This document shows positions 40,479 through 63,302 of a stretch of DNA of 64,000 nt, one piece after another (within the stretch, counting starts at the first letter, position 1; every line of letters begins with the position of its first letter). The stretch is taken from positions 1,343 through 65,342 of IMG/VR virus record IMGVR_UViG_3300030104_005071. The stretch is one strand, 5' to 3'. Under the pieces are notes generated by a model. That model did not search any database, was not told the DNA's origin, and saw only the letters and a list, made by a program, of their open reading frames with translations. The stretch comes from a virus (Duplodnaviria > Caudoviricetes). Both the position numbers and the translations under genes were made by a program.

Positions 40479-40738
40479 TAGGCTTCAGGAATATCGTGAT
40501 AGAACAAGTCAGCCGTGCGGTCTAAAAGATTCTCAGATGCCTCTGCGGGGTCATCACCGATGCCAACTGCAATACGCACACCACAAATAAATAGAGCGAA
40601 GCCACCATCAACTGTGCCGACTTCGACATCGTCGTAACCTAGATCTTCTAGGGCCAGTATTAATTGTGCGCCGTTAATCACTACAGTATTGTGAATCTCT
40701 AGTTCTGCGTTGAAACTCATAACCGCATTGTAACTCAT
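40478..40738 (-). CDS. Hypothetical acidic protein
   Basis: 86 aa from ATG 40738 (ATGA overlap). Confidence 0.55.
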   Translation of the reverse strand: MSYNAVMSFNAELEIHNTVVINGAQLILALEDLGYDDVEVGTVDGGFALFICGVRIAVGIGDDPAEASENLLDRTADLFYHDIPEA

Positions 40739-41043
40739 CTCTTCGCCCATCTCCCTGGACCAGTCCGCGCATTTATACGTACACGCTCGCCAAGATCTAC
40801 TAAACAGGCAACCCAAGCCTCGTAACGAACGGGTTCGTTAAATGATTTTTTTGTCGAAGACGAAAAAGCTTCAGATAATCCCTTCACAATTCTCATTGTC
40901 GGCAATCGTTGACCTGATTCGATTCGACTAATCTCTGCTTGAGTTAATCCAGACTCCCTGGCAAGGTCTGCCTGACTCCAATTTCTTGAGTCTCGATACT
41001 TTGCTATTGTCTTTGAAAATTGATTTACTAATTCAGGTGCCAT
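40735..41043 (-). CDS. XRE-family HTH transcriptional regulator
   Basis: WSQADLARESGLTQAEISRIESGQRLPT; SD GGAG before ATG 41043. Confidence 0.85.
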   Translation of the reverse strand: MAPELVNQFSKTIAKYRDSRNWSQADLARESGLTQAEISRIESGQRLPTMRIVKGLSEAFSSSTKKSFNEPVRYEAWVACLVDLGERVRINARTGPGRWAKR

Positions 41044-41100
41044 CACTACTCCAATAACCGTTACGGTAGCACGATTAAACAGATAAATCAAGTAATAGTC

Positions 41101-41129
41101 TTGACGTAACGGTAAGTATACTATAAGCT
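41101..41129 (+). promoter_or_regulatory. Sigma70-type promoter for the replication operon, overlapping a divergent -10 (TATACT)
   Basis: TTGACG-N17-TAAGCT. Confidence 0.55.
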
Positions 41130-41147
41130 CCAATCAAAGAGGTCCAA

Positions 41148-43076
41148 ATGACAGGCCAACCCGAATTAGAATACGTAATAAAGACATTCCAGAACGATGA
41201 GCAATTCATGGGCGAAGTTGAATCTTTGATTCCTGGTTGCATGGTTTACCTACGTCAAGGTAGCTCTCGTTGGGCGCGACTTAAAAACGCTAACCCCGAT
41301 TACCTAAGCAATCGAGAAGAGTGGTTTATTAGAGCGCCACTTCACGGGGCATGGTTAGTCGAACGAATGTTGAACGCATCAGGTGTTCGCTATTGGTGTC
41401 AGGCAACTTCTGGTTCTATGCTTGTGCAGCCTTGGTCCAACAACGAAATAAAAAGAAGCGAGCTTGAGTCCGAAGGTAAAAGACTCATTGGTAAAGCCAT
41501 AAACAGAAGAGAGATACGAAGCTACGTTGCAGATATTGCCACCCCGTACCAGTTTATGGGTGTCGCGTGGGCACATTCTCGACCATACGTCATGAATGTT
41601 TGGGCTTGCGGTTCAGGTAAGACTTTAGGTGCTTTGATGTCCGCAACATCGCGTGAGGGCGACATTGTCGTCGTTTGCCCCGCGAAGGCTCGTCATGTTT
41701 GGTGGAGTCAGGTCCAGGAATACACAAACATTAAGCCATTCAGGGTTAAACCAAAGGCTGAGATTAGGAAAAAAGACCAGACTTTCGAAGACTACGAACA
41801 TGCTTGCCGAGAAACGGGGCAACGAAAGTTTGTTATCGTCGGCGCAGAATCTATTGCTGATAACGTAGACTTAATCAAAGCGATCGAGCCGTCTGTTGTA
41901 ATCTTTGATGAGATTCATACGCATGGCAACAGCAAAAGGTGGAAGGCTGTACACAACGTAAACGGCACCATTCGTTTCGAGAAACGTAAGACGACTGCCA
42001 GCAACAACCCCAACTCAAAAGTTAATCGCCACGCACGCGCAGTATCCATCATGGAGGTGTCGCGCATCGCCAGCATTCAACTGCGCATTGGCTTGACAGC
42101 AACGCCGCTCGACGACGGTCGACCCCGACGCCTATGGTCACAACTGGACTTACTTGCTCCTGGCGGCTTCTCCCACAGCTACTCCAACTTTGCGCACCGT
42201 TACTGTTCCGCACGACCTGGAACCTACGGTGGTCTCGAAGATGGAGGTTCGTCCAACATTGAAGAGTTAAAGGCCCGTTGCTCCTTTCTTGTCCATGAGG
42301 TTCCTTACAGCGAATCACATTCAAGTTTGCCTAGCACGCGGGTCCAGGTTGATTATCTGACAAACTCTGAGTTGAATCGTGCCGATAGGTTTAGCGACGA
42401 CCAAACGTTTACTCAGGCGGTGCGACAAATAAACCGTGAAGTGGGTAAAACCAATGACGGAAGAGAGCGCGTCGTTGAGGTGCGTCTTGCCGAGGCATGT
42501 AGCCGTAAACGTAAGTATGTGATTGAGGAAGCTATTGAGGGTCTAAAGGGCGGAGGTAAGGTGGTTATCTTCACCGCTCGTAGGCGAGAGACGGAGTTGT
42601 GGGCACATCAATTGCGTAATCAGTTGTCGAAGGGTGATGAGGCGCAGAAGGGTGTGCCCGTATGGATGGCTCATGGTGGCGTATCGGAAACAGAGCGCGA
42701 CGAAATGGTTGATGCGTTCCGTAATAGCGACACTGCGTGTTGTCTGGTGGCTACAGGGCAGAGTGTGGGTACTGGTGTAGACGGTATGCAGACTGCAAAC
42801 CTGGCTATTTTTGCGATGCTCCCTTGGAAGCCTGGTGACTTTGTCCAGTGGAAGGGTAGGTTCGACCGACTTGGTGGAAGTCCTACTTTGTTGAAGGTTG
42901 TTGTGGCTCAAGGCACCTATGACGAGCGAGTCGTACAGATTCTCGTTGATAAGTTTGGGCCGATTGAAACGTTCTTGAAAGCCGATGAGCTTGATGGATT
43001 GAGTGAAAAGCTTCTTGGTATGGAAGATGAAGAGGCGCTTGTAAGTAGCATTATTAGCAAGCTGGAAGTAGCATGA
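41148..43076 (+). CDS. SNF2/SF2 helicase
   Basis: CGSGKT, VVCP, FDEIH, LTATP, GTGVDG, QWKGRFDRLG. Confidence 0.85.
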   Translation: MTGQPELEYVIKTFQNDEQFMGEVESLIPGCMVYLRQGSSRWARLKNANPDYLSNREEWFIRAPLHGAWLVERMLNASGVRYWCQATSGSMLVQPWSNNEIKRSELESEGKRLIGKAINRREIRSYVADIATPYQFMGVAWAHSRPYVMNVWACGSGKTLGALMSATSREGDIVVVCPAKARHVWWSQVQEYTNIKPFRVKPKAEIRKKDQTFEDYEHACRETGQRKFVIVGAESIADNVDLIKAIEPSVVIFDEIHTHGNSKRWKAVHNVNGTIRFEKRKTTASNNPNSKVNRHARAVSIMEVSRIASIQLRIGLTATPLDDGRPRRLWSQLDLLAPGGFSHSYSNFAHRYCSARPGTYGGLEDGGSSNIEELKARCSFLVHEVPYSESHSSLPSTRVQVDYLTNSELNRADRFSDDQTFTQAVRQINREVGKTNDGRERVVEVRLAEACSRKRKYVIEEAIEGLKGGGKVVIFTARRRETELWAHQLRNQLSKGDEAQKGVPVWMAHGGVSETERDEMVDAFRNSDTACCLVATGQSVGTGVDGMQTANLAIFAMLPWKPGDFVQWKGRFDRLGGSPTLLKVVVAQGTYDERVVQILVDKFGPIETFLKADELDGLSEKLLGMEDEEALVSSIISKLEVA

Positions 43077-43619: not shown

Positions 43620-43808
43620 GTGAGCGAGTTTGAACGTATGTGCCGATTGGTGCATGTAGTCTACGAAGACATGATTGATGAGCATGAGCCTTATTTTGAC
43701 GGGGATATTCGGAAAGACGATTGGAGTGAGGGGCTTCGAAATGATTTTCTCGAGCGAGTAGTCGAGTTGCTTCAGATTAAAATTAATGAATTTATGGGCG
43801 CGGCGTGA
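43620..43808 (+). CDS. Small hypothetical protein
   Basis: GTG 43620 with SD GAGG, 62 aa, GTGA overlap with the next gene. Confidence 0.55.
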   Translation: MSEFERMCRLVHVVYEDMIDEHEPYFDGDIRKDDWSEGLRNDFLERVVELLQIKINEFMGAA

Positions 43809-44794
43809 GAAAGATTCTTATCGACGCAGGTCGATCATCTCGTGGGTGGTCTCGTATCGGAACCTTTTCTCGGTGTCCGCAGTTGTTTGCCTACGGCCAA
43901 CGGCTCAACTTAGAAATGATCCCCGCTCACGCCTTGACTCGCGGTAGCATGGGCCACGTCATCCAGGCGCATCAACATGCAATCTGGGGAGCAGCTTCGG
44001 CTGAAGGTGTTTGGGTCGATGAGACATGGCACGATGACCCCACTGTGTTTCTCGATCCTGAAGAAGCCGTACAGATGTGGTGCGGCACCAATGGTGGGCA
44101 TGAGCACCTTGATAGAATGCTTGAAACCTTTGAGCGATACATGGCTCAGCATCCTGAACCTCCAGGCAACGTAATAAAAGTCGAGTACCCAGTAACTGCG
44201 GTGCTGGGGAACAAGGATAATCAATGGGGGTTATGGGTTGTTCACTTAGACGATACTAATTTCGACCGCCGTACGTCAAAGGTAAAGGCTTGGGATGGCG
44301 GAATCATTGAGCCTACTCCGTTGAATTGTCCTGGTCACCCCGAATCTGGTGAAGCCTTGGTACTCACACGACGCCTCGACATGGTGACGAAAGAGAGGGG
44401 TGGCCGTACGTTTATATGGGATCACAAACACCAGGCACGGGTACAAGCCAACAAGAGTGTCGATGGTTACGCAATTGATGGTGGGTTTGCCGCATTTAGA
44501 ATCATGGGTAAGCAGATGTACGGCAGTAACTTCGGTGGTCTCGGCCTTAATTTGATTCAGACACAGTCACCCTGGCGCGTAGCTCGGCCAATGGTTCCGG
44601 CGACACCACACAGGGACGCGCACTTTGCTCAGATGCTTTGGCGTGAAGAACATAGACTGGCGCGACTTGAGGTAGACTCGCCAACCTTTTGGGACTGGCC
44701 TAAAGTGCAGCATGAAACCTCATGCATCGGGCGGTATGGAGCTTGTCCTGGTATTAAGTTTTGCTTCTACGGCGATGCCGCGAAAACAATTTAG
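43805..44794 (+). CDS. PD-(D/E)xK nuclease, Cas4/AddB-like
   Basis: SRIGTFSRCP, GSMGH, VEYP, RLD...IWDHK, C-terminal CIGRYGACPGIKFC (4-Cys staple). Confidence 0.75.
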   Translation: MRKILIDAGRSSRGWSRIGTFSRCPQLFAYGQRLNLEMIPAHALTRGSMGHVIQAHQHAIWGAASAEGVWVDETWHDDPTVFLDPEEAVQMWCGTNGGHEHLDRMLETFERYMAQHPEPPGNVIKVEYPVTAVLGNKDNQWGLWVVHLDDTNFDRRTSKVKAWDGGIIEPTPLNCPGHPESGEALVLTRRLDMVTKERGGRTFIWDHKHQARVQANKSVDGYAIDGGFAAFRIMGKQMYGSNFGGLGLNLIQTQSPWRVARPMVPATPHRDAHFAQMLWREEHRLARLEVDSPTFWDWPKVQHETSCIGRYGACPGIKFCFYGDAAKTI

Positions 44795-44802
44795 GAGAGA
44801 CA

Positions 44803-45780
44803 ATGATTGAAGACAACGAACATCCTAGTGTGATGATTACCGTTTACGGTAAACCCAAACAGAAGAAAACGAGTGATGCATTAGCTGCATTTCCAAGAGC
44901 GTTGTTCTTGGGTGTGCCTTCAGCGATCACATTGGTTGCACAGAACGAGTTGGGTTTTACTCCATCGGTTCATTCGGATTCGCCTAAGAACCTGACCGAG
45001 CTTGTCAGTATGCTCAAAAGCTTTACTGAGTTAGATCCGGCTGAGTACGACGCATTGGTAATCGACGACACAAGTCACTTGTGCCAGCGTTCAATGGTTG
45101 AGTGGCAAGAGAGTGCGCCGATGGGACGAAGCGGGAAGAAAGATAAATTCTACCCGTACCAACAATTAAGTCAGCACCTACTTGAGATTGCACATACAGC
45201 ACGGTACTTAAACGTTCACCTGCTTATGAATTTTCACGAACGTACACCAGGAACAAACGCTGAAGGACGGTTCTGCCCCGGCGGCCCAGATGTACCATCT
45301 CGGAACCAAGTAGAAACGTTACCGTCATGGTGTGACATCAATGTCCGTTCAATGCTTGACCCAACATACCCAGATCCCTGGTTCCCAAGCATCTATTATT
45401 GCGACCCAACAAACCCTGAATGGGTGACGGGAGATCGAACCGGTACATGTTCTGCAAAGACACCGGGCAACTTGCGCGAGATTTTACGTGCCAGTAAGAG
45501 CAACTATCACTTGAGCCGACTTCCCGGTCTGGAATGGCAAGATGAGGTTGCAGAATCTGTAGCAAACGCTATGATTGAGGGTGCTGCTGTTCAGGATGCT
45601 ATCCAGTCAGCAGTGTCAGGTCGGACTGACAATCGGTTGCATCTTCGTTGGGCGTGCCAGGATGGCATTGCGCGTGGCGTTTTGAGGCAGCAGAGTACCC
45701 AGTCTCTTTTTGATTTCTCGGAACCTGAAACAAACAAAGCTTCATCTCCGAGTCTTCCACCACCACCACCAACTAACTAA
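44803..45780 (+). CDS. AAA_24/Sak4-like ATPase (recombinase)
   Basis: ITVYGKPKQKKTS, LVIDDTS, NFHE; between nuclease and SSB. Confidence 0.7.
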   Translation: MIEDNEHPSVMITVYGKPKQKKTSDALAAFPRALFLGVPSAITLVAQNELGFTPSVHSDSPKNLTELVSMLKSFTELDPAEYDALVIDDTSHLCQRSMVEWQESAPMGRSGKKDKFYPYQQLSQHLLEIAHTARYLNVHLLMNFHERTPGTNAEGRFCPGGPDVPSRNQVETLPSWCDINVRSMLDPTYPDPWFPSIYYCDPTNPEWVTGDRTGTCSAKTPGNLREILRASKSNYHLSRLPGLEWQDEVAESVANAMIEGAAVQDAIQSAVSGRTDNRLHLRWACQDGIARGVLRQQSTQSLFDFSEPETNKASSPSLPPPPPTN

Positions 45781-45796: not shown

Positions 45797-46372
45797 ATGA
45801 CTATCAAAGTAGCAGGCAACGCGTTTCAAGGTATCAGTGCTCTTGGGTCTTCCGTACCCGAGGCAGGATTTTACGAGGTCAGTATCGTAAATCTCGAGCG
45901 TACTGGAAACGACAAGCCCACAACTCGTCGGGTTTACGTTCAATTCGAAAACGGATTTAAGATGTTTTCGTTCCTTAGCGTTCCATTCGACGACAATGGA
46001 AACATTCTCTCGGATCTAAGTGAGAAGCAAGTCCGTGGTCGCATGGCCGTCTTGCGTTCTATTCTTGAGTCGCTTGGCTACAGTGCCGCTGACATTGAGG
46101 GTGCCACTGAGATCAACACTGCCTGGTTCCTGACCAGCCAGAACCAAGGCCGCAAGGCTTTCGTTGAGTTTGTTCCTGGGCAGAAGGGTGTTCAGGGTTC
46201 TTACAACGAAATCGGAAAGTGGCTTACTAAGCAACAATTCGATGCGCTTAAGAAGTCTACAAACGTAGCCAGCACCAACAGTGCGCCTGCCGTGTCTAAC
46301 GGAGCACCCGTACCACCGGCTGGAGTTTCTTTGCCTCCACCTGCAAGCGCGGCTCAAGGCATCGTTAGCTAA
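45797..46372 (+). CDS. Probable single-stranded DNA-binding protein (DUF669-like)
   Basis: VPEAGFYEVSI...YNEIGKW; follows the Sak4-like gene; SD AAGGAG. Confidence 0.6.
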   Translation: MTIKVAGNAFQGISALGSSVPEAGFYEVSIVNLERTGNDKPTTRRVYVQFENGFKMFSFLSVPFDDNGNILSDLSEKQVRGRMAVLRSILESLGYSAADIEGATEINTAWFLTSQNQGRKAFVEFVPGQKGVQGSYNEIGKWLTKQQFDALKKSTNVASTNSAPAVSNGAPVPPAGVSLPPPASAAQGIVS

Positions 46373-46393: not shown

Positions 46394-49195
46394 GTGTCCC
46401 AAAGACCCGAGCAGGAAGGCATGTCGGGGGTCGAGATAGATGCCTTACTTTCTATGAATAAGAATCCAAAACAATGTGGTGCCCGTTGCGATGAGTGTCC
46501 TCTCGGACCCAACGGCGCACTACAGAAAGATGAATGGCGTCCCGTCACTGGAGAGTTTCATCCAGGAGCAAAGATACTTGCACTGGGTGAAGCTCCACGC
46601 GCCGAAGATGTAAACAACGGTCGACCCATAATGGGTAGTGCTGCATCTGAGTGGGCCAGGTTTTTGAGTGCCGCAGGTATGAATCGATCGCACGTAGACT
46701 TGGATAACGTCATTGCCTGCAAGCCCCCTGGTAAGGAGGGTGGCGCGTGGAATCGAATGGAGAAGTCGCTCGATCGCCTCAACAAGAAGCGTGTGGCGCA
46801 GGGGAAAGATCCATTACCCCATCCGGCTGAGTGCTGTAAGCCTCGCTTGGAATCTGTACTAAACAAGTACGACAACTTCATTGCCTTCGGTAAGACTGCA
46901 ACACGGGCCTTATCGAATCAATCGTCGAGCATACACGCCATGCGTGGTGGTCCAATGTACATCGACGACAACTGGGTGTGGTCTTCTGAACCGACAACTA
47001 AGAAGATGTTGGCTACGTTCTCACCTCACTACGTAACGAGAGCCCCTAATTGGAGGCCCGTTATTGAGGCCGACATATCCAAAGCTAAGAGATGGTTCGA
47101 CAACACACTGCGATGGATTGAACCTGAGTCACAGATGAACCCAACGCCTGAAGAGCTTGAGGCTTTTCTGGCACAGCCCGCACCATTCTGGGCTTACGAC
47201 GTTGAGACTGACGGCATCGAACCCCTTGAGTGCAACCTACGCACCATTGCAATTGCCATCCCCGATCTGGACGCCGAGGGCAAAGCTGCACGCTCCAACC
47301 CTATACACGTTTCAAAAGCTATCGGAGTTGGTCTACTCTCCACCGATGGCGTTACTCGCATCTACCCACCAGAAGACGAACGTCGCATTCGTGACATACT
47401 CTGCACCGCATTCACAGACGGTCGCGTTTGGGTGGGCCACAACGCAGGCTACTACGATCGTATGGTGGTTGAGACGCAGTTTGGAGTCACACCAGAACCG
47501 CTTGTAGACACGCTCTTTCATGCCAGGTTTAGGTCACCTGACCTACCCAAAGGACTGAAGACGATTGGATCGGTGCTTACAGATGTCGAACGTTGGGAGA
47601 CAACAGAAAAGGGTACGAAGATATCTACTGGTAGTCAAGATGACACAGAGCTTCTGAAGTACAACATCATCGATACAGTAGTGAACGCTCGAATTACGGT
47701 GCCGTTGATTGACGCAGCAGTGGAGGTCGGTGCTTTCAATGAATTGAATCGTGGGCTTAGGCCAAGTCACTGGCCTATTGAGAGGCCGTGGAATCTAAAC
47801 GAAATAGACCACGCAACTCAAGAGATGTGCGTGGGTATGCACAAAGCAGGTATTTGGATCGACCAGGAGCTACGTAGTTCACTTGAGTGTGAGTACGAGA
47901 TATCTGTGAAGCGTAGACGTAAAGAGCTACAGAAACATGTAGACGCGGGTTTCAATCCTGGGAGCGTGGATCAGATTCGCAAGCTTCTTTACGATGATTG
48001 GAATCTGGGGATTCCGGCGTCGATGAGTGCCAATGAGTTTTATACCGAGACAGGTGCTCCAGGTACAGGTGACGCAGTAATACGCGGGCACCTTGCATCG
48101 GGTCAAATGAGTGAGCGCCAAGAAACATTTTTGAAGCAACTCCGGTTGTATCGTAGAGAGAAGAATAAGATTTTAGGTACTGTGTTGGTTCCGTTGAGAC
48201 GTAGAAGTCAAGACTCAGATAAAGGATTGGTTCCTGAGGATGGTCGCGTAAGGTCCACTTGGAATGCTCACGTTACCAGTGTCGGAAGACTATCAAGCTC
48301 TGGTCCTAATCTCCAGAACATCGGCAATCGAAAGGGTCAGGGAAGATTAAAGTCTATCTTTGCTGCCCCTCCAGGACGCATACTGGTGGGTGCTGACTTA
48401 GATCAAGCACACCTACGAATCACTGCTTGTTACTGGCAGATACCTCGACTGCTCGAATGTTTTGACACGGGTAAAGATCCTCACAATCTACTGGCTTACG
48501 ACATATTTGGTAACGATTTTAAGAATGCGAGTGGTTGGGGGCCAGATGGTTTTAGTCTAGATCGTAAGCCTACAGGTGGTGAAGCCAAAGCTATGCGTGA
48601 TGTCATGAAGACATTTCGATACGCGTCAATTTATTGGGCTGACCCGATGACTGTATGGCAAGTGTTGACAAGCACAGAGACCGATGACGGTCGAATGCCA
48701 TACCTAAAGTTTGAGCCAAGAGAGGTCAGACATTTTCACAATAAGTGGCTGAAAGCTGAGCCTGAATGGATGGACGCTTGGAACGATATGCGAGGCTTGT
48801 ATAGTCGTCAGAAGTTTATGGAAGAGCCGATATTTAATCGACGCTCAGGCCCATTGTCTGACGGTAAGAAGAATGAAGTGGTTAACTTTCCGATTCTTGC
48901 GGCTGAATCTTCAATCATGAGACTCGCAGAACAAGCTGTGATCGGTGAGTTTCCGTTTGATTTTGCAGGTCGAGGTACTGGTATGATCCATCAATGCCAC
49001 GACTCGATTGCAGTAGAGATACCCTTACCAGAAAACTTATCACCAGATTGGAAACCCGTTAAGGGAGAGCCATTACCCCCAGAGTTGGAAGTCGCGAGAC
49101 GCACTGTTGAAGAGTGTATGACCGTGACTATCCCTGGCTGGGATGTTAGGATGACCGCAGAGGCTGAAGTCGGACGCAGCCTTAAAGACATATAG
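46394..49195 (+). CDS. polA: Family A DNA polymerase with N-terminal family-4 UDG-like domain and 3'-5' exonuclease (start may be 46421 or 46454)
   Basis: GEAP/Fe-S Cys; Exo I YDVET, Exo II GHNAGYYD, Exo III YNIID; GRLSSSGPNLQN; motifs A ADLDQAHLR, B RDVMKTFRY, C HDS. Confidence 0.9.
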   Translation: MSQRPEQEGMSGVEIDALLSMNKNPKQCGARCDECPLGPNGALQKDEWRPVTGEFHPGAKILALGEAPRAEDVNNGRPIMGSAASEWARFLSAAGMNRSHVDLDNVIACKPPGKEGGAWNRMEKSLDRLNKKRVAQGKDPLPHPAECCKPRLESVLNKYDNFIAFGKTATRALSNQSSSIHAMRGGPMYIDDNWVWSSEPTTKKMLATFSPHYVTRAPNWRPVIEADISKAKRWFDNTLRWIEPESQMNPTPEELEAFLAQPAPFWAYDVETDGIEPLECNLRTIAIAIPDLDAEGKAARSNPIHVSKAIGVGLLSTDGVTRIYPPEDERRIRDILCTAFTDGRVWVGHNAGYYDRMVVETQFGVTPEPLVDTLFHARFRSPDLPKGLKTIGSVLTDVERWETTEKGTKISTGSQDDTELLKYNIIDTVVNARITVPLIDAAVEVGAFNELNRGLRPSHWPIERPWNLNEIDHATQEMCVGMHKAGIWIDQELRSSLECEYEISVKRRRKELQKHVDAGFNPGSVDQIRKLLYDDWNLGIPASMSANEFYTETGAPGTGDAVIRGHLASGQMSERQETFLKQLRLYRREKNKILGTVLVPLRRRSQDSDKGLVPEDGRVRSTWNAHVTSVGRLSSSGPNLQNIGNRKGQGRLKSIFAAPPGRILVGADLDQAHLRITACYWQIPRLLECFDTGKDPHNLLAYDIFGNDFKNASGWGPDGFSLDRKPTGGEAKAMRDVMKTFRYASIYWADPMTVWQVLTSTETDDGRMPYLKFEPREVRHFHNKWLKAEPEWMDAWNDMRGLYSRQKFMEEPIFNRRSGPLSDGKKNEVVNFPILAAESSIMRLAEQAVIGEFPFDFAGRGTGMIHQCHDSIAVEIPLPENLSPDWKPVKGEPLPPELEVARRTVEECMTVTIPGWDVRMTAEAEVGRSLKDI

Positions 49196-49203: not shown

Positions 49204-49635
49204 ATGGAAACATCTAAATGGTTTCTGGCTCATTCTAAACAGGATGGGCTGGAAGATATTGAGCAGTGGTGCGTGAAGATCGGTAGGTCTTTGGTCCAGG
49301 ATGGCTGGGAAACTAAAGTCATTTCGGGTCGAGACGACTACGAGATTCGTGCAGCGGCATTGGGAGGTTGGAAAGCCTGGTGCCGTGACGTACCACATGG
49401 GAAAGACTTTCAGGGTAATCCAATGTTTCACGGGGTAATCATACCTGTGTATTCAGATAACGAAAACCCAACTGTCGGAAAAGCCACAGCAGATATTGTA
49501 GATGGCTTTATATCTGCGGGTAAGCACGTTTATACATGGTGTCCCGCAGATGAAGTATTCCAAAAAGTATCTTCAATTGAAGTCTTACCAGAACAAGACT
49601 ACCTTGCATGGGCACGGTTAGACTTTAGTTGTTGA
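49204..49635 (+). CDS. NDT/TIR-like flavodoxin-fold protein
   Basis: WFLAHS first strand; VGKATADIVDGFISAGKHVY resembles GTxxExxxAxxxGKPV. Confidence 0.45.
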   Translation: METSKWFLAHSKQDGLEDIEQWCVKIGRSLVQDGWETKVISGRDDYEIRAAALGGWKAWCRDVPHGKDFQGNPMFHGVIIPVYSDNENPTVGKATADIVDGFISAGKHVYTWCPADEVFQKVSSIEVLPEQDYLAWARLDFSC

Positions 49636-52166: not shown

Positions 52167-52342
52167 GAGTCCTCCTATTGCCTTACAGGTAAGTATAACA
52201 GGGTGTGACAATTCGTGGTTTGACACGGGGTGGTGTGGCCCGATAGTCTTGTTGGGTTGGTGGGTTGCGCCAGTTAAATTCATCTCGTTCTGAGGTGAAT
52301 TGTTTTTGTTTGGAATTGATGTTGTTTATGTAGGTGGTTCAC

Positions 52343-54472
52343 ATGGAAGCAGATGGCACGGTGGGGATGGAGAGCCCCGAAGGCCAAAGCAGAAACCCTG
52401 AAAGTGGTTCTGTTGTTGATCGGGCAGTTGAAATAATTCGTGGTTTAGTTGAGCGTTTAAACAATGGTGGTCGACCAGAACATCGAGCCGCCTGGGATTC
52501 AATGCATGATCCCGAAACCATCAACACCTTAGCTGAAGCCTGGTTACAGGATGAGGGTCGGCTGATCACAAGTATCGCCCTCATTGAAATGGTTCCGAGA
52601 CAGGTTCAACGCGCAAGACAATTTAGGCGCACGATACAAACTCTTGCGAATGAAGTCCAAAGACGCAGGTCTGATCAGATCCTTGCGGATCTCGAAGAAC
52701 AGTTGGGCGAACTACCCACGCTTGAGACCATGCTGGACGGTGGCGCTCCACCACCAGAGGTTGTCACTCGTCAGGTGCTATCAACGCTTCGGGCTCCACG
52801 AGGTTTCGAAGTTGACTTCAACGGCGTTTACCGATTGACCGCACAAGTTGACGGCACTATCTCACGCACACGTATCGCCCTGGCTCCAATCTTCATCGCA
52901 GGGCGAACCATTGATGTTGTTAGCGGTGAAGCTAAACGTCTACTTGTTTGGCGTGGCGCAAGTGGTTGGCGATCACGGGTGGTCAACCGAAGAACCATTG
53001 TTGATGCCTCAAAGATTATTGCGTTGTCGAATCTAGATGCTCCCGTAAGCACGAACAATACACTGCACATGGTGTCATACCTGGCAGAGTTTGATGCTGA
53101 GAACGCGCATAGGTTTCCGGTGGTTCAATCAGCTTCGTCGATGGGTTGGCAACCTAATGGTGGATTCCTATTACCTGACATGTATTACTCAACAGATCAA
53201 AACGTGGGGCAAGACTTTGCACTGACGCCACCTTCAGGTCTTGAGACGTTGTCTGGTGGGTGGAAACCCAAAGGTACTTGGGGTGAATGGATAAGTGCGA
53301 TGCAGTTGGTCGAAGACTTTCCATACATGTTTATTGCTGTGTATGCGAGTGCCGCTGCACCATTACTGGAGGTGCTTCACATTCCAGGTTTTGTACTAGA
53401 CTTTAGCGGTGAGACCAGTGGCGGAAAGACAACGGCATTGAGATTTGCAGCTTCAGTTTGGGGTCGCCCTGCTGAGTCGTATCCTACTGCTATGTATTCG
53501 TGGGACGCAACTAAGGTATGGATTGAGCGTACCAGTGGGTTTCTAAAGAACCTTCCATTGGTCCTGGACGAAACTAAGCGAGCACGACACCCGCGAATTG
53601 TACGCGATGTGATCTATGACTTTTGCCAAGGCCAGGGTCGCGGTCGAGGTTCAGTCGAAGGAACCCGGCACACTGAGTCTTGGCGTTCTGTTTTGATTAG
53701 TAGCGGTGAGGGTGCGGCAACGTCGTTCTCTCAGGATGCAGGGACACGCGCCCGAGTCTTGTCGTTAAAGGGTAAGCCGTTGGGAGACGACGTTGTTGTG
53801 GGTTCGGCTGCTAGTGAGGAAGCACAGGCGCTGTTGGCTAAGAGCTATGGACATCTGGGGCGACACGTTGTGCAGTACCTGGTGGCGAACCGAGAGCGTT
53901 ATTCGGATATTCGTGCGGTGTTTCAGGCGTCGAGGCAGAAGTATTCAGAGCTTGCTCAGAGTGCTGTGTCGCGTAGACATGCAGGTCACTTGGCTGTGCT
54001 CGAAGTGGCGGCGAGTATTGTACACAGTCTTGGTGTGCCGACACCTACAGTTGATCCGTTCACATGTTTGCTGGAGTCACAGGAGCAGGCGGGGCACGAT
54101 GCAGACAGACCGTTATCTGCACTGCAAGATTTCCTGACTTGGTGTGCGACACACCAGAAAAGGTTTTGGGGTCGAGGCGAAAAGGATCGAGAAGGCAACA
54201 CAAAAGCACCACCGCAAGGTTGGGTTGGCGCTTGGGAAGACAAGAACGATTGGGATTCTATCGCAGTGACAACCACTGGATTCAACGCATTGATGAAAGA
54301 CTTAGGCCACGACCCCGACGAGATCATTACTCGCTGGAAGGACCGTGGCTGGTTGAGGTTGGGTGGAGGGAGTAAGCGCCCCAGGAGCAGAGTGATCCGC
54401 GTCGATGGGGCACCTACTCGATGCTATTGTATTGATCGGAACGCAGCCGATATGGCTATTGAATCCGAGTGA
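52343..54472 (+). CDS. DUF927/Cch-like replicative helicase
   Basis: MGWQ, YASAAAPLL, GETSGGKTT, SVWGRP, LPLVLDE, GQGRGR, W..VLISSGE, G..AR; C-terminal winged helix. Confidence 0.8.
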   Translation: MEADGTVGMESPEGQSRNPESGSVVDRAVEIIRGLVERLNNGGRPEHRAAWDSMHDPETINTLAEAWLQDEGRLITSIALIEMVPRQVQRARQFRRTIQTLANEVQRRRSDQILADLEEQLGELPTLETMLDGGAPPPEVVTRQVLSTLRAPRGFEVDFNGVYRLTAQVDGTISRTRIALAPIFIAGRTIDVVSGEAKRLLVWRGASGWRSRVVNRRTIVDASKIIALSNLDAPVSTNNTLHMVSYLAEFDAENAHRFPVVQSASSMGWQPNGGFLLPDMYYSTDQNVGQDFALTPPSGLETLSGGWKPKGTWGEWISAMQLVEDFPYMFIAVYASAAAPLLEVLHIPGFVLDFSGETSGGKTTALRFAASVWGRPAESYPTAMYSWDATKVWIERTSGFLKNLPLVLDETKRARHPRIVRDVIYDFCQGQGRGRGSVEGTRHTESWRSVLISSGEGAATSFSQDAGTRARVLSLKGKPLGDDVVVGSAASEEAQALLAKSYGHLGRHVVQYLVANRERYSDIRAVFQASRQKYSELAQSAVSRRHAGHLAVLEVAASIVHSLGVPTPTVDPFTCLLESQEQAGHDADRPLSALQDFLTWCATHQKRFWGRGEKDREGNTKAPPQGWVGAWEDKNDWDSIAVTTTGFNALMKDLGHDPDEIITRWKDRGWLRLGGGSKRPRSRVIRVDGAPTRCYCIDRNAADMAIESE

Positions 54473-54476: not shown

Positions 54477-54848
54477 CTAACCAGATGACTTTAAGTCCAT
54501 CCACTTGACCAGTCCTCGGACGTGATCGGGTGTCATGTATTGAAAGACAGCGAATGCCCACAGCACATCGAAGTCAAACTCCAGATCAAACTTGTCTGTA
54601 AATAACGAATGGATTGCTTTGCATCGTTCGTGGCTCGGTACTGATTTACCTTTCAACCAACGACCGATCTCCACACCAGACGCGTGAACCCGATCGTGGT
54701 CTGATAAGAATTCATTCAACATGCGAGAAAACTCACGGTTCGACACAATCCGATCCTCATCCACAAAAGCTTTGCGTCTTGCCTGGAAAAGTAAATTCTC
54801 AAATGCAAATGCGAATGGATAGTCGTCACGGTTTAGATCTTGAGTCAT
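54477..54848 (-). CDS. HTH DNA-binding protein
   Basis: SNREFSRML...SGVEIGRWLKGKSVPS. Confidence 0.6.
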   Translation of the reverse strand: MTQDLNRDDYPFAFAFENLLFQARRKAFVDEDRIVSNREFSRMLNEFLSDHDRVHASGVEIGRWLKGKSVPSHERCKAIHSLFTDKFDLEFDFDVLWAFAVFQYMTPDHVRGLVKWMDLKSSG

Positions 54849-55051
54849 TATTCACCTTCCCTTAGAATACGGAGACGACGCTTGGCTGCACGCTCAGCGC
54901 CATGTTTTGAGGTGTACGTGTTCTTGTACAGTATCTTGATTGCCGGGGCAGAAAGCCCGACATCATGATCCTCGTAGACTATGAGTGACCAGCATTTGTG
55001 TACGCCGTCACGCGGAGCACCATCGATCATTGTAATGAAGTAGTCGTACAT
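54848..55051 (-). CDS. Hypothetical protein
   Basis: 67 aa, TAATG-coupled. Confidence 0.6.
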   Translation of the reverse strand: MYDYFITMIDGAPRDGVHKCWSLIVYEDHDVGLSAPAIKILYKNTYTSKHGAERAAKRRLRILREGE

Positions 55052-55290
55052 TACTGACCCCCCAACGCAATGACCTGGGCTTTGACGATCGCCGCTGTCA
55101 CATCATCGTCTGCTGCCAACTCTTCACAAGCATCACACTCACCGCCCCAGTCACCGCCAACGATGTTGTCACAGTCTTCGTTGATACAAACTACGCACGC
55201 ACATTCGTCGCTGCCACTAAGGTGGTATCTCTGATCACATTCACTACACGTCCTATACCCGACGTTCCAGGCCATTCGGTCCCAGTCCAT
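55051..55290 (-). CDS. Small Cys-rich protein
   Basis: Multiple CxxC-like pairs; SD AGGAG. Confidence 0.6.
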   Translation of the reverse strand: MDWDRMAWNVGYRTCSECDQRYHLSGSDECACVVCINEDCDNIVGGDWGGECDACEELAADDDVTAAIVKAQVIALGGQ

Positions 55291-55336
55291 ATTCTCTCCT
55301 GTTGTTTAAAGATGTGTGTCACTGCGACACTCTATG

Positions 55337-55365
55337 TTTTTACCGCAAATTGAATGTCGCGTCAA
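55337..55365 (-). promoter_or_regulatory. Early promoter TTGACG-N12-TGCGG-TAAAAA
   Basis: Shares TGCGG before the -10 with promoters at 55550 and 61364. Confidence 0.55.
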
Positions 55366-55444
55366 GGAATAATTCGACACTACCTGTAGTGTATGATGTC
55401 GTTGGAGCACCTACAGAGTCGCGTAATCTATTTGAGAATCGCAA

Positions 55445-55518
55445 TAAAAAGCACCCGACCAGTGGAGAGGTACTGATCGGGCGCAAGTTTTTGTTCGGAC
55501 TGACCTCGGCGGTCGATC
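55445..55518 (-). ncRNA. Candidate small RNA (~75 nt) with anti-SD terminator loop
   Basis: Own promoter, no ORF, 13-bp hairpin with two G-U pairs only in the minus orientation, loop ACCTCTCC, U-run. Confidence 0.55.
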
Positions 55519-55520
55519 AA

Positions 55521-55550
55521 AGTTTAACCGCACTACATGTAGTGTGTCAA
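55521..55550 (-). promoter_or_regulatory. Promoter TTGACA-N12-TGCGG-TTAAAC containing the palindrome CACTACATGTAGTG
   Basis: Direct reading of the reverse complement. Confidence 0.6.
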
Positions 55551-55639
55551 ACCTTGGCGTCCACTACCAAAAATCCCTGCTCCCATGCAGATGTTTGTGG
55601 CGGCTCGAGTGGTCGACATAGGTGTGCCCCGAAGGATAT

Positions 55640-55666
55640 CAAAGGAAGCGGGGCCGAAGCCCCTTT
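55640..55666 (-). terminator. Hairpin GGGGC-TTCG-GCCCC after ORF 55669
   Basis: UUCG tetraloop, weak U-tract. Confidence 0.45.
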
Positions 55667-55668
55667 GG

Positions 55669-55893
55669 TTATGGTGTTGTTGGATCTACCTCCATGATGA
55701 TTTCCCCGTTGTGCATCAAGGCTTCGTGAGCAGTTGTGGTTTCGCCCTGTATTAGTTCGGTGAAGCGCCATTGTTTGGCTGTGGTGGGTGCACCGGCAAC
55801 TTCGAGGATTTCATTTGTGGACCACTCACGAGGATCGAAGTTTTGATCTTCGTCAGTGAGGTGTACGGTTAGTTGGATTGCCCAGGTTTTCAT
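55669..55893 (-). CDS. Hypothetical protein
   Basis: 74 aa from ATG 55893. Confidence 0.5.
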   Translation of the reverse strand: MKTWAIQLTVHLTDEDQNFDPREWSTNEILEVAGAPTTAKQWRFTELIQGETTTAHEALMHNGEIIMEVDPTTP

Positions 55894-55906
55894 AGTGTTT
55901 CCGTTG

Positions 55907-55987
55907 TTATTGAACGATGTAGGCACAGCCGTGCCAGAATAGAACGAACCAGACAAAGGCAGTTGCAAAGTCATACATGTCGTACAT
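55907..55987 (-). CDS. 26-aa hydrophobic micro-protein (not in ORF track)
   Basis: MYDMYDFATAFVWFVLFWHGCAYIVQ; TGATG-coupled; fills the gap. Confidence 0.5.
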   Translation of the reverse strand: MYDMYDFATAFVWFVLFWHGCAYIVQ

Positions 55988-56133
55988 CAGAATGGAACCT
56001 CGTTGTAGTTGGTTTTGGTGATCCATGTTTCTGACGCAAGGAAGAAGCCTGGTCCGGCCTCGTCGTCGGATAGCATTTGGGGGATGACCCGTAGTAGTTC
56101 GTTGAGTTCAGCTAATGTTATAGGTACTGTCAT
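55987..56133 (-). CDS. Small hypothetical protein
   Basis: 48 aa, TAATG-coupled, ends EVPF. Confidence 0.5.
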   Translation of the reverse strand: MTVPITLAELNELLRVIPQMLSDDEAGPGFFLASETWITKTNYNEVPF

Positions 56134-56828
56134 TAATGTTGTAAGAATCCGATTATCGGAACCCCCTCGTGTGTTGTTGCATCGCAGAGACCGCACGTAT
56201 TGCAGTCACGGCGTCCGACCTGGGCTGGGCATAATACAACTTTGCGCCCTTCGGGCGTTGTGTATTGTTCGCCGGACCATTCAGGCAGGTTTCGCAGTTG
56301 TGGTTTGTTTGCGCCTGGAGCTTTGCGGTCTGTGATGGTGACGGCTACGCGCCATCCGGCATCGACTGCGGTGTCGGCTTCGGCGAGGTTGTCGCATGAC
56401 GCCATTGCGAGGCCACGTAGGTGTCGGCCTTTGGTTGCGAAGAAGTGCGTGTAAGCTAAGACGCCCTTTAATCCAGAGGCTTTGGCTTTGTGGTGCCACA
56501 AGGCGACCGTGTTCCTGTCAAATACGTTGGGGTCACCGCCCACTGCTGCACGTATGTAACGGGCTGCACGACGCGCGTTGGCTAAAGCGTAGTCGAGCGT
56601 GTACTCGTCGGGGTGCCGACGCTCCCGTACACGCATTGACTGATGGGCACCCTGCGTTTGGCCCTGCCAATAGTAACAACCACCTCCCTTCCCAGTCTCT
56701 GGATCTTTACGACGCCACTTGCACCCAGTGCACGACGCTTCAGTTTGTTCTTTGGTTTCGCCAACATACCCTTGTGGTATATTGCCTGTTTTTGCATTGC
56801 CCGATGTGGGCCGCCATAACATTTTCAT
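56133..56828 (-). CDS. Cys-rich Fe-S/radical-SAM-like phage protein (gp88/DUF7227-like)
   Basis: SGNAKTG, SCTGC...CY, R...GD, YTH, ASCD, CPAQ...CNTCGLC...F.H. Confidence 0.6.
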   Translation of the reverse strand: MKMLWRPTSGNAKTGNIPQGYVGETKEQTEASCTGCKWRRKDPETGKGGGCYYWQGQTQGAHQSMRVRERRHPDEYTLDYALANARRAARYIRAAVGGDPNVFDRNTVALWHHKAKASGLKGVLAYTHFFATKGRHLRGLAMASCDNLAEADTAVDAGWRVAVTITDRKAPGANKPQLRNLPEWSGEQYTTPEGRKVVLCPAQVGRRDCNTCGLCDATTHEGVPIIGFLQH

Positions 56829-56832
56829 TGTA

Positions 56833-57219
56833 CTACCCGGAGCAGATGTCGTGGTAACGAACGCGTGGTTGAGCGGATTTTGTTTTGTCGCAGTACTCGA
56901 TTTCAAACAAAGCGTAATCGGATTCACGGACAGGTATTTGGGTTGACGCGTCGACGAACGTGCTGTGTTTGTATGGGTTGTATGTCACTCGGGCGGTACT
57001 TAAGCGATTGACGTCGAGATCGACGTGACGCAACTGGTAACCACGGGCAAAGGCGTGTACGTTTTTGCGTTTGTCGCGTCGAACCCGAGCCTGACCGCCT
57101 GGTTGCACGACCCATTTGACATTTTCCAATGCGAAACAGTCGACGTGATCAACCACTTTGCCGTTGTGGCGTACGCTGAAAAGTTTGCGCGTGAGGTTCC
57201 AATAGATTTCTACTTTCAT
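56833..57219 (-). CDS. Conserved phage hypothetical protein
   Basis: YWNL...FSVR...GQARVRRDKRKNVHAF..G...VTYNPY. Confidence 0.65.
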   Translation of the reverse strand: MKVEIYWNLTRKLFSVRHNGKVVDHVDCFALENVKWVVQPGGQARVRRDKRKNVHAFARGYQLRHVDLDVNRLSTARVTYNPYKHSTFVDASTQIPVRESDYALFEIEYCDKTKSAQPRVRYHDICSG

Positions 57220-57377
57220 TTTATGTCTCTGAGGCAGTTGAGCCAGTGGTCGTGTTTGGTTGTGATGAGGTAGGTCCACAGTACGTCGACCTCGTGTTGC
57301 AGGTTGTCGCAGTCGTCGTCGATCAGTTCGTCGATGACCTCAACCTGGTCCAGAATTTTAGATAGGATTTGTTCCAT
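57216..57377 (-). CDS. Small hypothetical protein (not in ORF track)
   Basis: MEQILSKILDQ...; coupled on both sides. Confidence 0.5.
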   Translation of the reverse strand: MEQILSKILDQVEVIDELIDDDCDNLQHEVDVLWTYLITTKHDHWLNCLRDIK

Positions 57378-58384: not shown

Positions 58385-58395
58385 TATGCTGTCCG

Positions 58396-60643: not shown

Positions 60644-60652
60644 GATTAAATC

Positions 60653-61305: not shown

Positions 61306-61335
61306 GGTTTCTCCTGTTGTTTAAAGTACTGGGTT

Positions 61336-61364: not shown

Positions 61365-61377
61365 GAGTAATTTGAGA

Positions 61378-63299: not shown

Positions 63300-63302
63300 T
63301 AG

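What the first reader, a model, noticed from the sequence alone, without database searches (positions are those of the whole stretch)
48392..49010. Family A DNA polymerase with a remodelled nucleotide-binding pocket (steric-gate Glu->His plus other substitutions)
Seen: motif A reads ADLDQAHLR instead of (A)DYSQIELR. The His codon CAC (48410-12) is two changes from a Glu codon, so a single read error is unlikely. Motif B reads RDVMKTFRYASIYW instead of RxxAKxxN(F/Y)GxxYG. The NxPxQ motif reads NFPIL (48884-98). The catalytic Asp of motifs A and C (CHDS), the motif B Arg/Lys/Tyr, GRLSS and all three Exo motifs are intact. Established: in Klenow, E710 is the steric gate excluding rNTPs and contacts Y766; Q849 reads the template minor groove; Tyr at 762 is the T7-type residue. 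Inference: this is an active polymerase whose sugar/base-selecting residues changed together, consistent with rNTP use, self-priming or a modified-nucleotide genome.
Basis: partly seen in the sequence, partly recalled or inferred. Interest (0 to 1): 0.82.

Follow-up and report, generated by a model that had tools for sequence, protein, structure and literature searches.

The report
Marine phage DNA polymerase, histidine steric gate
An uncultivated marine phage lineage replicates with a family A DNA polymerase in which the glutamate that normally keeps RNA building blocks out is always a histidine, a natural exception that has not been tested at the bench.

Summary
ORF 46394-49195 (+, 933 aa) is a fusion of a uracil-DNA-glycosylase-like domain, a 3'-5' exonuclease and a family A polymerase. 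It is the only polymerase I found in a 65-kb uncultivated marine podovirus.

- **Changed residues:** Klenow E710 is His673, I709 is Ala672 and Q849 is Leu835.
- **Kept residues:** both catalytic Asp, the O-helix Arg/Lys/Tyr/Tyr and the exonuclease residues are intact.
- **Fixed across the lineage:** His is present in 121 of 121 aligned proteins and 101 of 101 viral contigs (CAC 85, CAT 16). Leu is present in 92 of 92 loci, with four codons.
- **Selection:** synonymous sites are saturated, and dN/dS is 0.02-0.04 in the two pairs where it could be computed.
- **References:** all six reference PolAs, phage N4 included, have Glu and Gln.
- **Modified DNA:** no known base-modification or dNTP-pathway gene was found in five genomes of the lineage. 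The phage also encodes a primase-helicase.

Best reading: an active, primer-dependent, dNTP-using replicase in which His acts as the steric gate, as it does in PolD. Altered sugar or minor-groove selectivity is not excluded and needs biochemistry. I rate it a new variant of a known kind.

The parts
46394..49195 (+). UDG-like / 3'-5' exonuclease / family A DNA polymerase fusion gene, 933 aa, GTG start
   Evidence: ORF. Pfam PF00476 E=1.4e-28, PF03167 E=3.2e-08, PF01612 weak. phrog_17 E=1.9e-67. AF2 model pLDDT 85, pTM 0.79. Foldseek best match is E. coli Pol I 8oo6_A, TM 0.80 on the target.
46550..47050 (+). Family-4 UDG-like domain (aa 53-219), with invariant Cys32, Cys35, Cys109 and Cys147/148 nearby. 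The motif-B His position is Ser210 in this protein.
   Evidence: Pfam stretch 53-219. PDB family-4 UDG hits 1ui0, 1vk2, 4zbx. Column counts: E66 in 106 of 121; position 210 is H in 94 and S in 16 of 121.
47150..47713 (+). 3'-5' exonuclease domain with Exo I (D269, E271), Exo II (N350, D355) and Exo III (Y423, D427)
   Evidence: All six residues are 121 of 121 in the clade alignment. Exo I aligns to Klenow.
48281..48289 (+). TGR motif, read V630-G631-R632. The Thr/Ser of other PolAs is Val or Pro in this clade.
   Evidence: references T, T, S, T, S, T. (V 85, P 36; R632 121 of 121).
48392..48418 (+). Motif A, ADLDQAHLR: catalytic D668 (=D705), A672 (=I709), H673 (=E710, steric gate; codon CAC 48410-48412)
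48596..48637 (+). Motif B / O-helix, RDVMKTFRYASIYW: R735, K739, Y743 (B3, =F762), Y747 (=Y766)
   Evidence: alignment. Predicted helix 729-745. R735, K739, R742, Y743 and Y747 are 121 of 121.
48884..48898 (+). Motif 6, NFPIL: N831 (=N845), P833 (=P847), L835 (=Q849; codon 48896-48898)
   Evidence: L835 is 121 of 121. Leu in 92 of 92 loci, with four codons.
48995..49006 (+). Motif C, CHDS: H869 (=H881), D870 (=D882), S871 (=E883)
   Evidence: All 121 of 121. E883 is also not kept in N4, Opt-155, vir526 or ctLwi270.
41148..43076 (+). SNF2/DEAD-type helicase of the replication module
   Evidence: phrog_62 E=5.4e-50. PF00271 and PF00176.
43805..44794 (+). PD-(D/E)XK exonuclease
   Evidence: phrog_1218. 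PF12705.
44761..45780 (+). Sak4-like ssDNA annealing ATPase
   Evidence: phrog_124. PF13479.
45797..46372 (+). Conserved 191-aa protein directly upstream of the polymerase. No family match; an SSB-like role is only a guess from its position.
   Evidence: No Pfam or PHROG hit. Found in 80 of 103 related loci.
49204..49635 (+). Conserved 143-aa protein directly downstream of the polymerase, unknown function
   Evidence: No Pfam or PHROG hit. Found in 76 of 103 related loci, next to the polymerase in all 76.
52334..54472 (+). Primase-helicase (DUF927 plus Cch HTH)
   Evidence: phrog_8841 E=3.6e-94. PF06048 E=1.5e-41.

Best explanation
The gene encodes the replicative DNA polymerase of an uncultivated marine podovirus lineage. 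It is a three-domain enzyme: a family-4 UDG-like domain, a proofreading exonuclease and a Klenow-fold polymerase.

Its nucleotide pocket carries three lineage-wide substitutions at positions kept in every reference PolA compared:
- E710 to His673. This is the floor under C2' of the incoming sugar and the partner of Tyr766.
- I709 to Ala672, the neighbouring residue.

Shown: the substitutions, their invariance, purifying selection, intact catalytic and proofreading residues, and the Klenow-like fold. No second polymerase turned up in the scans I ran, which left some ORFs under 100 aa and bases 1-1342 of the record unscanned.

Inferred: the enzyme is active, primer-dependent and uses ordinary dNTPs. 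The imidazole of His673 takes over the steric-gate role, clashing with a 2'-OH as His931 does in PolD, and can still hydrogen-bond Tyr747. Ala672 makes room for the bulkier ring. Leu835 gives up one minor-groove check, which the active exonuclease can compensate.

The pocket loses negative charge (Glu to His, and Ser at the E883 position). This might tighten dNTP binding in phages that mostly carry no nucleotide-supply genes of their own. That last point is speculation.
For: Identity and fold.

Residue equivalences to Klenow.

Invariance across relatives:
- H673, A672, L835, D668, D870, R735, K739, Y743 and Y747 are 121 of 121 in an alignment of the query plus 120 clusters at 55-88% identity.
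- His in 101 of 101 IMG/VR loci matching G-A-D-L-D-Q-A-x-L-R, with both His codons used (85 CAC, 16 CAT).
- Leu in 92 of 92 held loci matching V-V-N-[FY]-P-[IV]-x-A-A-E, with four codons.
- The most divergent member found, L078 at about 42% identity, also has His and Leu.

Selection on the polymerase domain, 8 pairs: pS 0.70-0.91 against pN 0.05-0.24. dN/dS was 0.023 and 0.040 in the 2 pairs where dS could be computed; the other 6 were saturated.

Proofreading residues are invariant.

Relatives carry inteins inside motif B and Exo II. Inteins are typically found at essential sites; that generalisation is recalled, not tested here.

The phage has its own primase-helicase, helicase, exonuclease and annealing protein.

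No known base-modification pathway: 0 of 5 genomes for PF00303, PF02511, PF00692, PF00383, PF00709 and PF01702.

Precedent for a histidine steric gate: PolD H931 blocks rNTPs and H931A abolishes discrimination; a His is also proposed for family C (PMC7708050, abstract and passages read).
Against: - In Klenow, E710A and E710Q are mutators with poor closed-complex formation and low incorporation rates. E710 and Y766 are described there as universally conserved in family A (PMC3715850, passages read). A non-Glu gate may therefore change fidelity or specificity more than I assume.
The His-Tyr contact and the C2' clash are inferred.
- No biochemical data exist for any member.
- About 87% of PHROG families and many ORFs here have no known function, so an unknown modification pathway cannot be excluded.
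- The nearest Glu-bearing relatives I could read are only 22-33% identical. I did not see where and how the switch arose.
Confidence: 0.6

Rival explanations
1. Relaxed or altered sugar selectivity. The His/Ala/Leu pocket lets the enzyme incorporate ribonucleotides or other 2'-substituted nucleotides, or copy RNA-containing templates, as part of the phage's replication.
For: The changed residues are exactly those that face the sugar C2' (E710, I709) and the minor groove (Q849). Klenow E710A accommodates a complementary rNTP about 2-fold better (PMC3715850, passages). From recall, not from a call: Taq I614 and E615 substitutions give rNTP incorporation.
Against: His is as bulky as Glu and is the working steric gate of PolD (PMC7708050). 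Tyr743 and Tyr747, which help position the sugar, are invariant. The genome assembles like ordinary DNA from many metagenomes (101 contigs). Nothing in the gene content points to RNA-containing genomes.
Confidence: 0.12
2. Adaptation to a modified-base genome. The polymerase is tuned to a non-canonical dNTP or to a template with a modified minor groove, as DpoZ is for 2-aminoadenine or the SP15-like UDG-PolAs are for 5hmU-derived bases.
For: UDG-PolA fusions of SPO1, SP-10, SP-15 and YerA41 belong to phages with T-modified DNA (PMC10201439 and PMC13697223, passages and section 15 read). Most clade members keep the UDG motif residues: E66 in 106 of 121 and His210 in 94 of 121. Loss of the Q849 minor-groove contact would tolerate a changed minor groove.
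Against: ThyA-like, ThyX, dUTPase, dCMP deaminase, PurZ-like and TGT/DpdA families are 0 of 5 in this genome and four CheckV-complete relatives, with positive controls ringing. No such family appeared in 49 window ORFs. Known T modifications sit in the major groove, not where the changes are. This protein's own UDG motif-B His is Ser.
Confidence: 0.08
3. Charge remodelling for dNTP-poor hosts. The same canonical chemistry, but Glu to His (with Arg742 and Ser871) makes the pocket less negative and lowers Km for dNTPs, in phages that bring no nucleotide-supply genes.
For: RNR is present in only 1 of 5 genomes and the other dNTP-pathway families in 0 of 5. H673, R742 and S871 are invariant. The relatives come from marine metagenomes, including Tara samples.
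Against: Purely inferential. Arg at 761 and Ser at 883 also occur in an unrelated UDG-PolA phage that keeps Glu (ctLwi270). The host is unknown.
Confidence: 0.15
4. Inactive or non-replicative polymerase-like protein, or a sequencing or assembly error.
For: A residue described as universally conserved is missing (PMC3715850).
Against: Both catalytic Asp, the O-helix residues and the exonuclease residues are invariant. Purifying selection is strong. It is the only polymerase found in the genome. The same residue is seen in 101 independent contigs with two synonymous codons.
Confidence: 0.02

Closest known systems
N4-like UDG-PolA (cluster #17 of Czernecki et al. 2023, PMC10201439; phage N4 gp39)
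   Same: An N-terminal family-4 UDG-like domain fused to exonuclease and PolA, 800-950 aa, in a podovirus. The replication module has the same gene kinds: helicase, exonuclease, Sak4-like protein, primase. In this particular protein the UDG motif-B His is lost, as the paper describes for N4-like enzymes.
   Different: N4 gp39 has Glu at the gate (DFASLEDRI), Phe at B3 and Gln in motif 6. Only 33% identity over 189 residues, E=7e-15. Most clade members keep the UDG His (94 of 121). The gene order differs. No N4-type virion RNA polymerase was detected: the 2590-aa protein matches only tail lysozyme and GNAT.
SPO1-like and SP15-like UDG-PolAs of phages with T-modified DNA (Missoury et al. 2026, PMC13697223)
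   Same: The UDG-exo-PolA architecture. UDG motif residues are kept in most of the clade.
   Different: Those enzymes are 1150-1300 aa with two large inserts and a C-terminal domain, and their phages carry 5hmU-pathway genes, PolX and ligase (paper, abstract and section 15). Here the protein is 933 aa, no ThyA-like, dUTPase or deaminase family was found (0 of 5 genomes), and no ligase or PolX family appeared in the 49 window ORFs scanned with Pfam. The paper refers to E710 as the steric gate of E. coli Pol I; it gives no His variant in the text I read.
Canonical Pol I / Klenow, Taq, Bst, T7 gp5
   Same: The fold: Foldseek E=7.9e-26, TM 0.80 on 8oo6_A. Also D705, D882, R754, K758, Y766, N845, H881, R668 and the DEDDy exonuclease residues. 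Tyr at B3, as in T7.
   Different: E710 to His, I709 to Ala, Q849 to Leu, Thr of TGR to Val or Pro. Clade-specific insertions lie between motifs A and B and after the O-helix. An added UDG-like domain.
Family D DNA polymerase steric gate His931 (Zatopek et al. 2020, PMC7708050)
   Same: A histidine next to the 2' position of the incoming nucleotide that excludes rNTPs and helps bind dNTPs. This is the functional analogy I propose.
   Different: An unrelated fold (two-barrel). The analogy is by mechanism only and was not tested here.

Membership tests
Family A DNA polymerase (Pfam PF00476, Klenow fold) | Profile match above the curated cut-off, and a Klenow-like fold | tested here: met
   PF00476 100.3 bits against a cut-off of 34.3. 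Foldseek to E. coli Pol I E=7.9e-26, TMt 0.80.
Family A DNA polymerase (Pfam PF00476, Klenow fold) | Catalytic Asp of motifs A and C; O-helix Arg, Lys, aromatic B3 and Tyr | tested here: met
   D668, D870, R735, K739, Y743 and Y747 align to D705, D882, R754, K758, F762 and Y766. All are 121 of 121.
Family A DNA polymerase (Pfam PF00476, Klenow fold) | Steric-gate Glu (position A2, Klenow E710), described as universally conserved | tested here: not met
   His673. His in 121 of 121 proteins and 101 of 101 loci. The 6 of 6 references have Glu.
Family A DNA polymerase (Pfam PF00476, Klenow fold) | Motif 6 Gln (Klenow Q849), minor-groove contact | tested here: not met
   Leu835. Leu in 121 of 121 proteins and 92 of 92 loci. 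References have Gln: 5 in the same column, and N4 one column off with the same N-to-Q spacing.
N4-like UDG-PolA (Czernecki cluster #17) | [quoted passage not shown] | tested here: met
   PF03167 at aa 53-219. PDB family-4 UDG hits.
N4-like UDG-PolA (Czernecki cluster #17) | UDG catalytic residues lost or deleted | tested here: inconclusive
   The window protein has Ser at the motif-B His position, but 94 of 121 clade members keep His and 106 of 121 keep the motif-A Glu. The motif names for family 4 are partly recalled.
N4-like UDG-PolA (Czernecki cluster #17) | Phe at B3 and sequence clustering with N4 gp39 | tested here: not met
   B3 is Tyr in 121 of 121, while N4 has Phe. BLASTP to gp39 covers only 189 aa at 33%. 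No CLANS-type clustering was done, and the paper's supplementary lists were closed.
SP15-like / SPO1-like UDG-PolA of T-modified phages | Large inserts 1 and 2 plus a C-terminal domain, 1150-1300 aa | tested here: not met
   933 aa; clade members are 900-950 aa apart from those carrying inteins. The inserts were not mapped residue by residue against YerA41 or phiLo, because I held no sequence for them.
SP15-like / SPO1-like UDG-PolA of T-modified phages | Genome carries the 5hmU/T-modification pathway (ThyA homolog, dUTPase, deaminase), PolX and ligase | tested here: not met
   PF00303, PF00692 and PF00383 are 0 of 5 genomes. No ligase or PolX family appeared among 49 window ORFs scanned with Pfam.
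DpoZ (2-aminoadenine PolA) | Co-occurrence with PurZ (adenylosuccinate-synthetase homolog) | tested here: not met
   PF00709 is 0 of 5 genomes, with the control ringing in 14 of 14.

The most novel reading that the evidence does not exclude
An abundant, globally distributed marine phage lineage replicates with a natural family A polymerase whose sugar and minor-groove selectivity has really changed. It might incorporate or tolerate ribonucleotides, 2'-substituted nucleotides or minor-groove-modified purines. If so, its virion DNA would not be ordinary DNA, and the pathway that makes the substrate would lie among the many unannotated genes.
Probability: 0.12. Interest if true: 0.9.

Novelty: new variant of a known kind. 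Interest (0 to 1): 0.62.

Why it matters
The steric-gate glutamate and its hydrogen bond to Tyr766 are treated in the polymerase literature as invariant in family A. In Klenow, replacing the glutamate cripples fidelity and closure.

Here is a whole natural lineage that has replaced it with histidine. I counted at least 120 protein clusters and 101 viral contigs, mostly marine. Two neighbouring changes come with it, and strong purifying selection is maintained.

- It gives enzymologists a ready-made natural experiment on how family A polymerases select the sugar and check the minor groove.
- It may be a useful scaffold for polymerase engineering.
- Surveys of viral PolA diversity that score only position 762 should also score position 710.
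- If the selectivity is really altered, it would point to a new kind of phage genome chemistry in the ocean.

Tried and rejected
- **Wider homolog search.** The search of protein representatives would have shown the nearest relatives outside the clade and whether His occurs elsewhere. I therefore could not see the sister lineage. A BFVD structure hit at 30% identity (A0A516L7M2) is a lead, but I could not read it.
- **Walking outward.** A second word-based search from the 55%-identical member P0120 returned essentially the same clade.
- **Cellular genomes.** The scan of genome contigs found only two phage contigs binned in one MAG, plus the ordinary Pol I of Marinobacter. In that gene, GADLDQAH is a chance antisense reading, and the real motif A there is ADYSQIELR. 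No host could be inferred.
- **Naming the phage.** tblastn of the large terminase and the major capsid protein against GenBank phages gave only 22-26% identity.
- **ESM Atlas.** It returned only generic UDG-PolA viral clusters.
- **Literature for a His gate in family A.** Searches listed nothing on it by title. A search for E710H, E615H, E480H, E658H, E895H or E2335H found 0 papers. Subscription journals are not covered, and figures and supplements were not visible. That includes the motif logos and cluster lists of PMC10201439, so I could not check that all 19 published clusters show Glu at A2.
- **Rejected readings.** Sequencing error and pseudogene are rejected on invariance, synonymous codon variation and selection. 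Self-priming has no support, because the phage encodes a primase-helicase.
- **Side-chain geometry.** I could not examine it in the AF2 model, because coordinates are not returned.


Full report
**What is there.** The window is bases 1343-65342 of a 65,342-base IMG/VR virus record that CheckV rates 92% complete. ORF 46394-49195 on the + strand gives a 933-aa protein. It matches Pfam DNA_pol_A (aa 497-879, E=1.4e-28), UDG (aa 53-219, E=3.2e-08) and, weakly, the 3'-5' exonuclease family. It also matches PHROG 17, 'DNA polymerase' (E=1.9e-67). An AlphaFold2 model built on 44 relatives has mean pLDDT 85 and pTM 0.79. Motif A scores 91-94 and motif B 87-89. Foldseek places the model on E. coli Pol I (8oo6_A, E=7.9e-26, TM 0.80 on the target) and other Klenow-fold enzymes.

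- phmmer, and a profile of the family, align VGADLDQAHLRI to Klenow VSADYSQIELRI. So D668 = D705 and H673 = E710.
- The profile also aligns NfPiL to NaPmQ and QCHDS to QVHDE, though that stretch scores weakly.
- I fetched E. coli polA, T7 gene 5, N4 gp39 and three UDG-PolA phages (Serratia Opt-155, vir526, ctLwi270). I checked the E. coli numbering and aligned the references with the query and five relatives.
- All six references have Glu at the gate, and only this lineage has His.
- The O-helix register is R735/K739/Y743/Y747 = R754/K758/F762/Y766.
- Gln849 is present in the references. Five lie in the same column, and N4 is one column off with the same Asn-to-Gln spacing. It is Leu835 here.
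- The residue before the gate, a large hydrophobic in 6 of 6 references (I, L, L, M, L, L), is Ala672.
- The Thr/Ser of the TGR motif is Val.
- Ser at the E883 position is also not special, because N4, Opt-155, vir526 and ctLwi270 lack that Glu as well.

**It is a lineage trait under selection.** A search of 5.8 billion clustered proteins gave 258 hits. The best 120, at 55-88% identity, are almost all about 900-950-aa UDG-PolA proteins from marine and other metagenomes, and several sit on 63-74-kb contigs.
- In the alignment of the query plus these 120, the following are 121 of 121: D668, A672, H673, R735, K739, R742, Y743, Y747, N831, P833, L835 and C868-H-D-S871.
- W748 is not fixed (W 83, A 26, G 11, K 1).
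- The exonuclease residues D269, E271, N350, D355, Y423 and D427 are also 121 of 121.
- As a direct test for revertants, I scanned IMG/VR for G-A-D-L-D-Q-A-x-L-R with the gate codon left free. There were 101 loci, all His, with CAC 85 and CAT 16.
- The same test on V-V-N-[FY]-P-[IV]-x-A-A-E gave 90 IMG/VR stretches. Among all the loci I then held, 92 matched. All were Leu, with four codons: CTC 45, CTT 33, CTG 13, TTG 1.
- I compared the polymerase domain in eight pairs. Synonymous differences are near saturation (pS 0.70-0.91), while non-synonymous ones are few (pN 0.05-0.24).
- dN/dS is 0.023 and 0.040 in the two pairs where dS could be computed. The other six pairs were saturated.
- The most divergent member I found is L078, on a 94-kb contig, with about 42% identity over the C-terminal 567 residues. 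It still reads GADLDQAHLR and NNPIL.

**Context.**
- The phage has a portal, large terminase, major capsid protein and internal-virion-like proteins. It also has a 2590-aa protein with tail-lysozyme and GNAT domains.
- Its replication module has an SNF2/DEAD helicase, a PD-(D/E)XK exonuclease, a Sak4-like ATPase, the polymerase, an SbcC-like protein and a DUF927 primase-helicase. Phage N4 has the same kinds of genes in a different order.
- The polymerase is flanked by a 191-aa protein and a 143-aa protein of unknown function. These recur in 80 and 76 of 103 related loci, and the 143-aa gene is next to the polymerase in all 76.
- I found no other polymerase.
- No cultured relative exists in the GenBank phage set. 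The polymerase reaches at most 25% identity, the terminase at most 25%, and the capsid protein has a single hit at 26%.
- The host is unknown. The only hits in 185,579 species genomes are two phage contigs binned in one MAG, and a chance antisense match inside an ordinary Marinobacter polA.

**Does the genome suggest unusual DNA?**
- I scanned 49 window ORFs with Pfam and 21 with PHROGs. No nucleotide-metabolism or base-modification family appeared.
- I then searched this genome and four relatives rated 100% complete (G001-G004), six frames, for specific families.
- Thymidylate-synthase-like (PF00303), ThyX (PF02511), dUTPase (PF00692), dCMP deaminase (PF00383), adenylosuccinate-synthetase/PurZ-like (PF00709) and TGT/DpdA (PF01702) are each 0 of 5. 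The control genomes rang in every search.
- Ribonucleotide reductase is present in 1 of 5.
- So none of the known pre-replicative routes to 5hmU-type, Z-type or 7-deazaguanine DNA is present. Unknown genes remain numerous.

**What is known.**
- Czernecki et al. 2023 (PMC10201439; I read passages, not figures or supplements) sort PolAs into 19 clusters. They call position A2 the steric gate and state strict conservation of the crucial residues. They describe N4-like UDG-PolAs (cluster #17, inactive UDG, Phe at B3) and mention unclustered UDG-PolAs such as SPO1, SP-10 and SP-15.
- Missoury et al. 2026 (PMC13697223; abstract, section 15 and passages read) define the SP15-like group. These are 1150-1300-aa enzymes with an active UDG and large inserts, from phages with T-modified DNA that also carry PolX and ligase.
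- Hohlbein et al. 2013 (PMC3715850, passages) call E710 and Y766 universally conserved in family A. They show that E710A and E710Q are mutators that close poorly.
- Zatopek et al. 2020 (PMC7708050, abstract and passages) show that PolD uses His931 as its steric gate, and that a His is proposed for family C.
- In Nasko et al. 2018 (PMC6302109) my term search found no occurrence of '710', 'E710' or 'steric'. In the 2026 T7 preprint (10.64898/2026.05.20.726624) the passages I read discuss position 762/526 and mention Glu710/Glu480 only as the conserved steric gate.
- I found no report of a natural His at A2. The searches cover only open-access text.

**Interpretation.** The enzyme is, with high probability, the working replicase of these phages. 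The reasons are that it is the only polymerase I found, the catalytic and proofreading residues are invariant, selection is strong, and relatives carry inteins exactly in motif B and Exo II.
- The three fixed changes cluster on the sugar and minor-groove face of the nascent and terminal base pairs.
- The most economical mechanism is that His673 replaces Glu710 as the residue under C2'. It would exclude a 2'-OH by bulk, as in PolD, and pair with Tyr747.
- Ala672 would make room for the ring. The loss of the Gln849 contact would be tolerated because proofreading is intact.
- I put this at 0.6.
- The geometry is inferred, not seen, and the Klenow mutant data warn that the gate residue affects fidelity and closure.
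- A real change in substrate range stays open at roughly 0.1 each for ribo- or 2'-modified nucleotides and for a modified-base genome.
- A charge-based tuning of dNTP affinity is a further possibility.

**Verdict.** Interest is 0.62, because a polymerase specialist would be surprised and the question can be tested directly with one recombinant protein.

Noticed in passing
relatives P0098, P0099, P0113 (insertion after query residue 746) and P0101 (after residue 349): Insertions of about 310 and 371 aa sit inside the polymerase of some relatives. One lies in the O-helix between Tyr743 and Tyr747, carries an HNH domain (PF13392) and ends in ...HNC. The other lies inside Exo II (VGH|N) and starts with CLHTGT. 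They look like inteins at the two most conserved sites.
   Followed up: partly
L078:2533-6267 (- strand), contig of 93,919 bases (G004): In the most divergent His-bearing relative, the polymerase is in two ORFs: 403 aa (UDG plus Exo I/II) and 617 aa (Exo III plus pol). About 670 nt lie between them. This could be a split gene, an intron or a mobile insertion. This genome is also the only one of five with a ribonucleotide reductase.
   Followed up: no
window 46394-47050 (aa 1-219): The UDG-like domain keeps four invariant Cys, consistent with a family-4 Fe-S cluster. This protein reads GEAPR and has Ser at the motif-B His position (SPH). By contrast, 94 of 121 relatives have His-Pro there. The glycosylase may be active in most of the lineage but not in this subgroup.
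   Followed up: partly
window 24869-32641 (+): A 2590-aa ORF with a phage tail lysozyme domain (aa 206-333) and a weak GNAT acetyltransferase match (aa 1124-1170). No RNA polymerase family was detected, so it does not look like an N4-type virion RNA polymerase on this evidence.
   Followed up: partly
window 54477-64000, mostly - strand: A block of small minus-strand ORFs, probably early genes, almost all without family matches. Exceptions are DUF7227 (56133-56927), a Phage_L5_gp82-family protein (56833-57279) and a weak DUF932 match (58914-59828). An HTH_3 regulator lies at 40735-41133 (-), just upstream of the replication module and on the opposite strand.
   Followed up: no
L110, L111 (contigs of 70,027 and 28,763 bases in one MAG labelled Myxococcaceae): Two contigs carrying this polymerase type (58% and 61% identity) are binned in a bacterial MAG. 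The 70-kb one has the size of a whole phage genome, so this is probably a binning artefact rather than a host signal.
   Followed up: no
L006 / OL539452.1 31348-34343: The UDG-PolA of Serratia phage Opt-155 (canonical DYSQMELRI) overlaps a dCMP deaminase gene directly upstream. That arrangement is reminiscent of phages with modified pyrimidines.
   Followed up: no
L112:2929-3963 (- strand of Marinobacter polA): The peptide GADLDQAH occurs by chance in the antisense frame of an ordinary bacterial polA. This shows that the peptide-pattern scan alone can mislead.
   Followed up: yes
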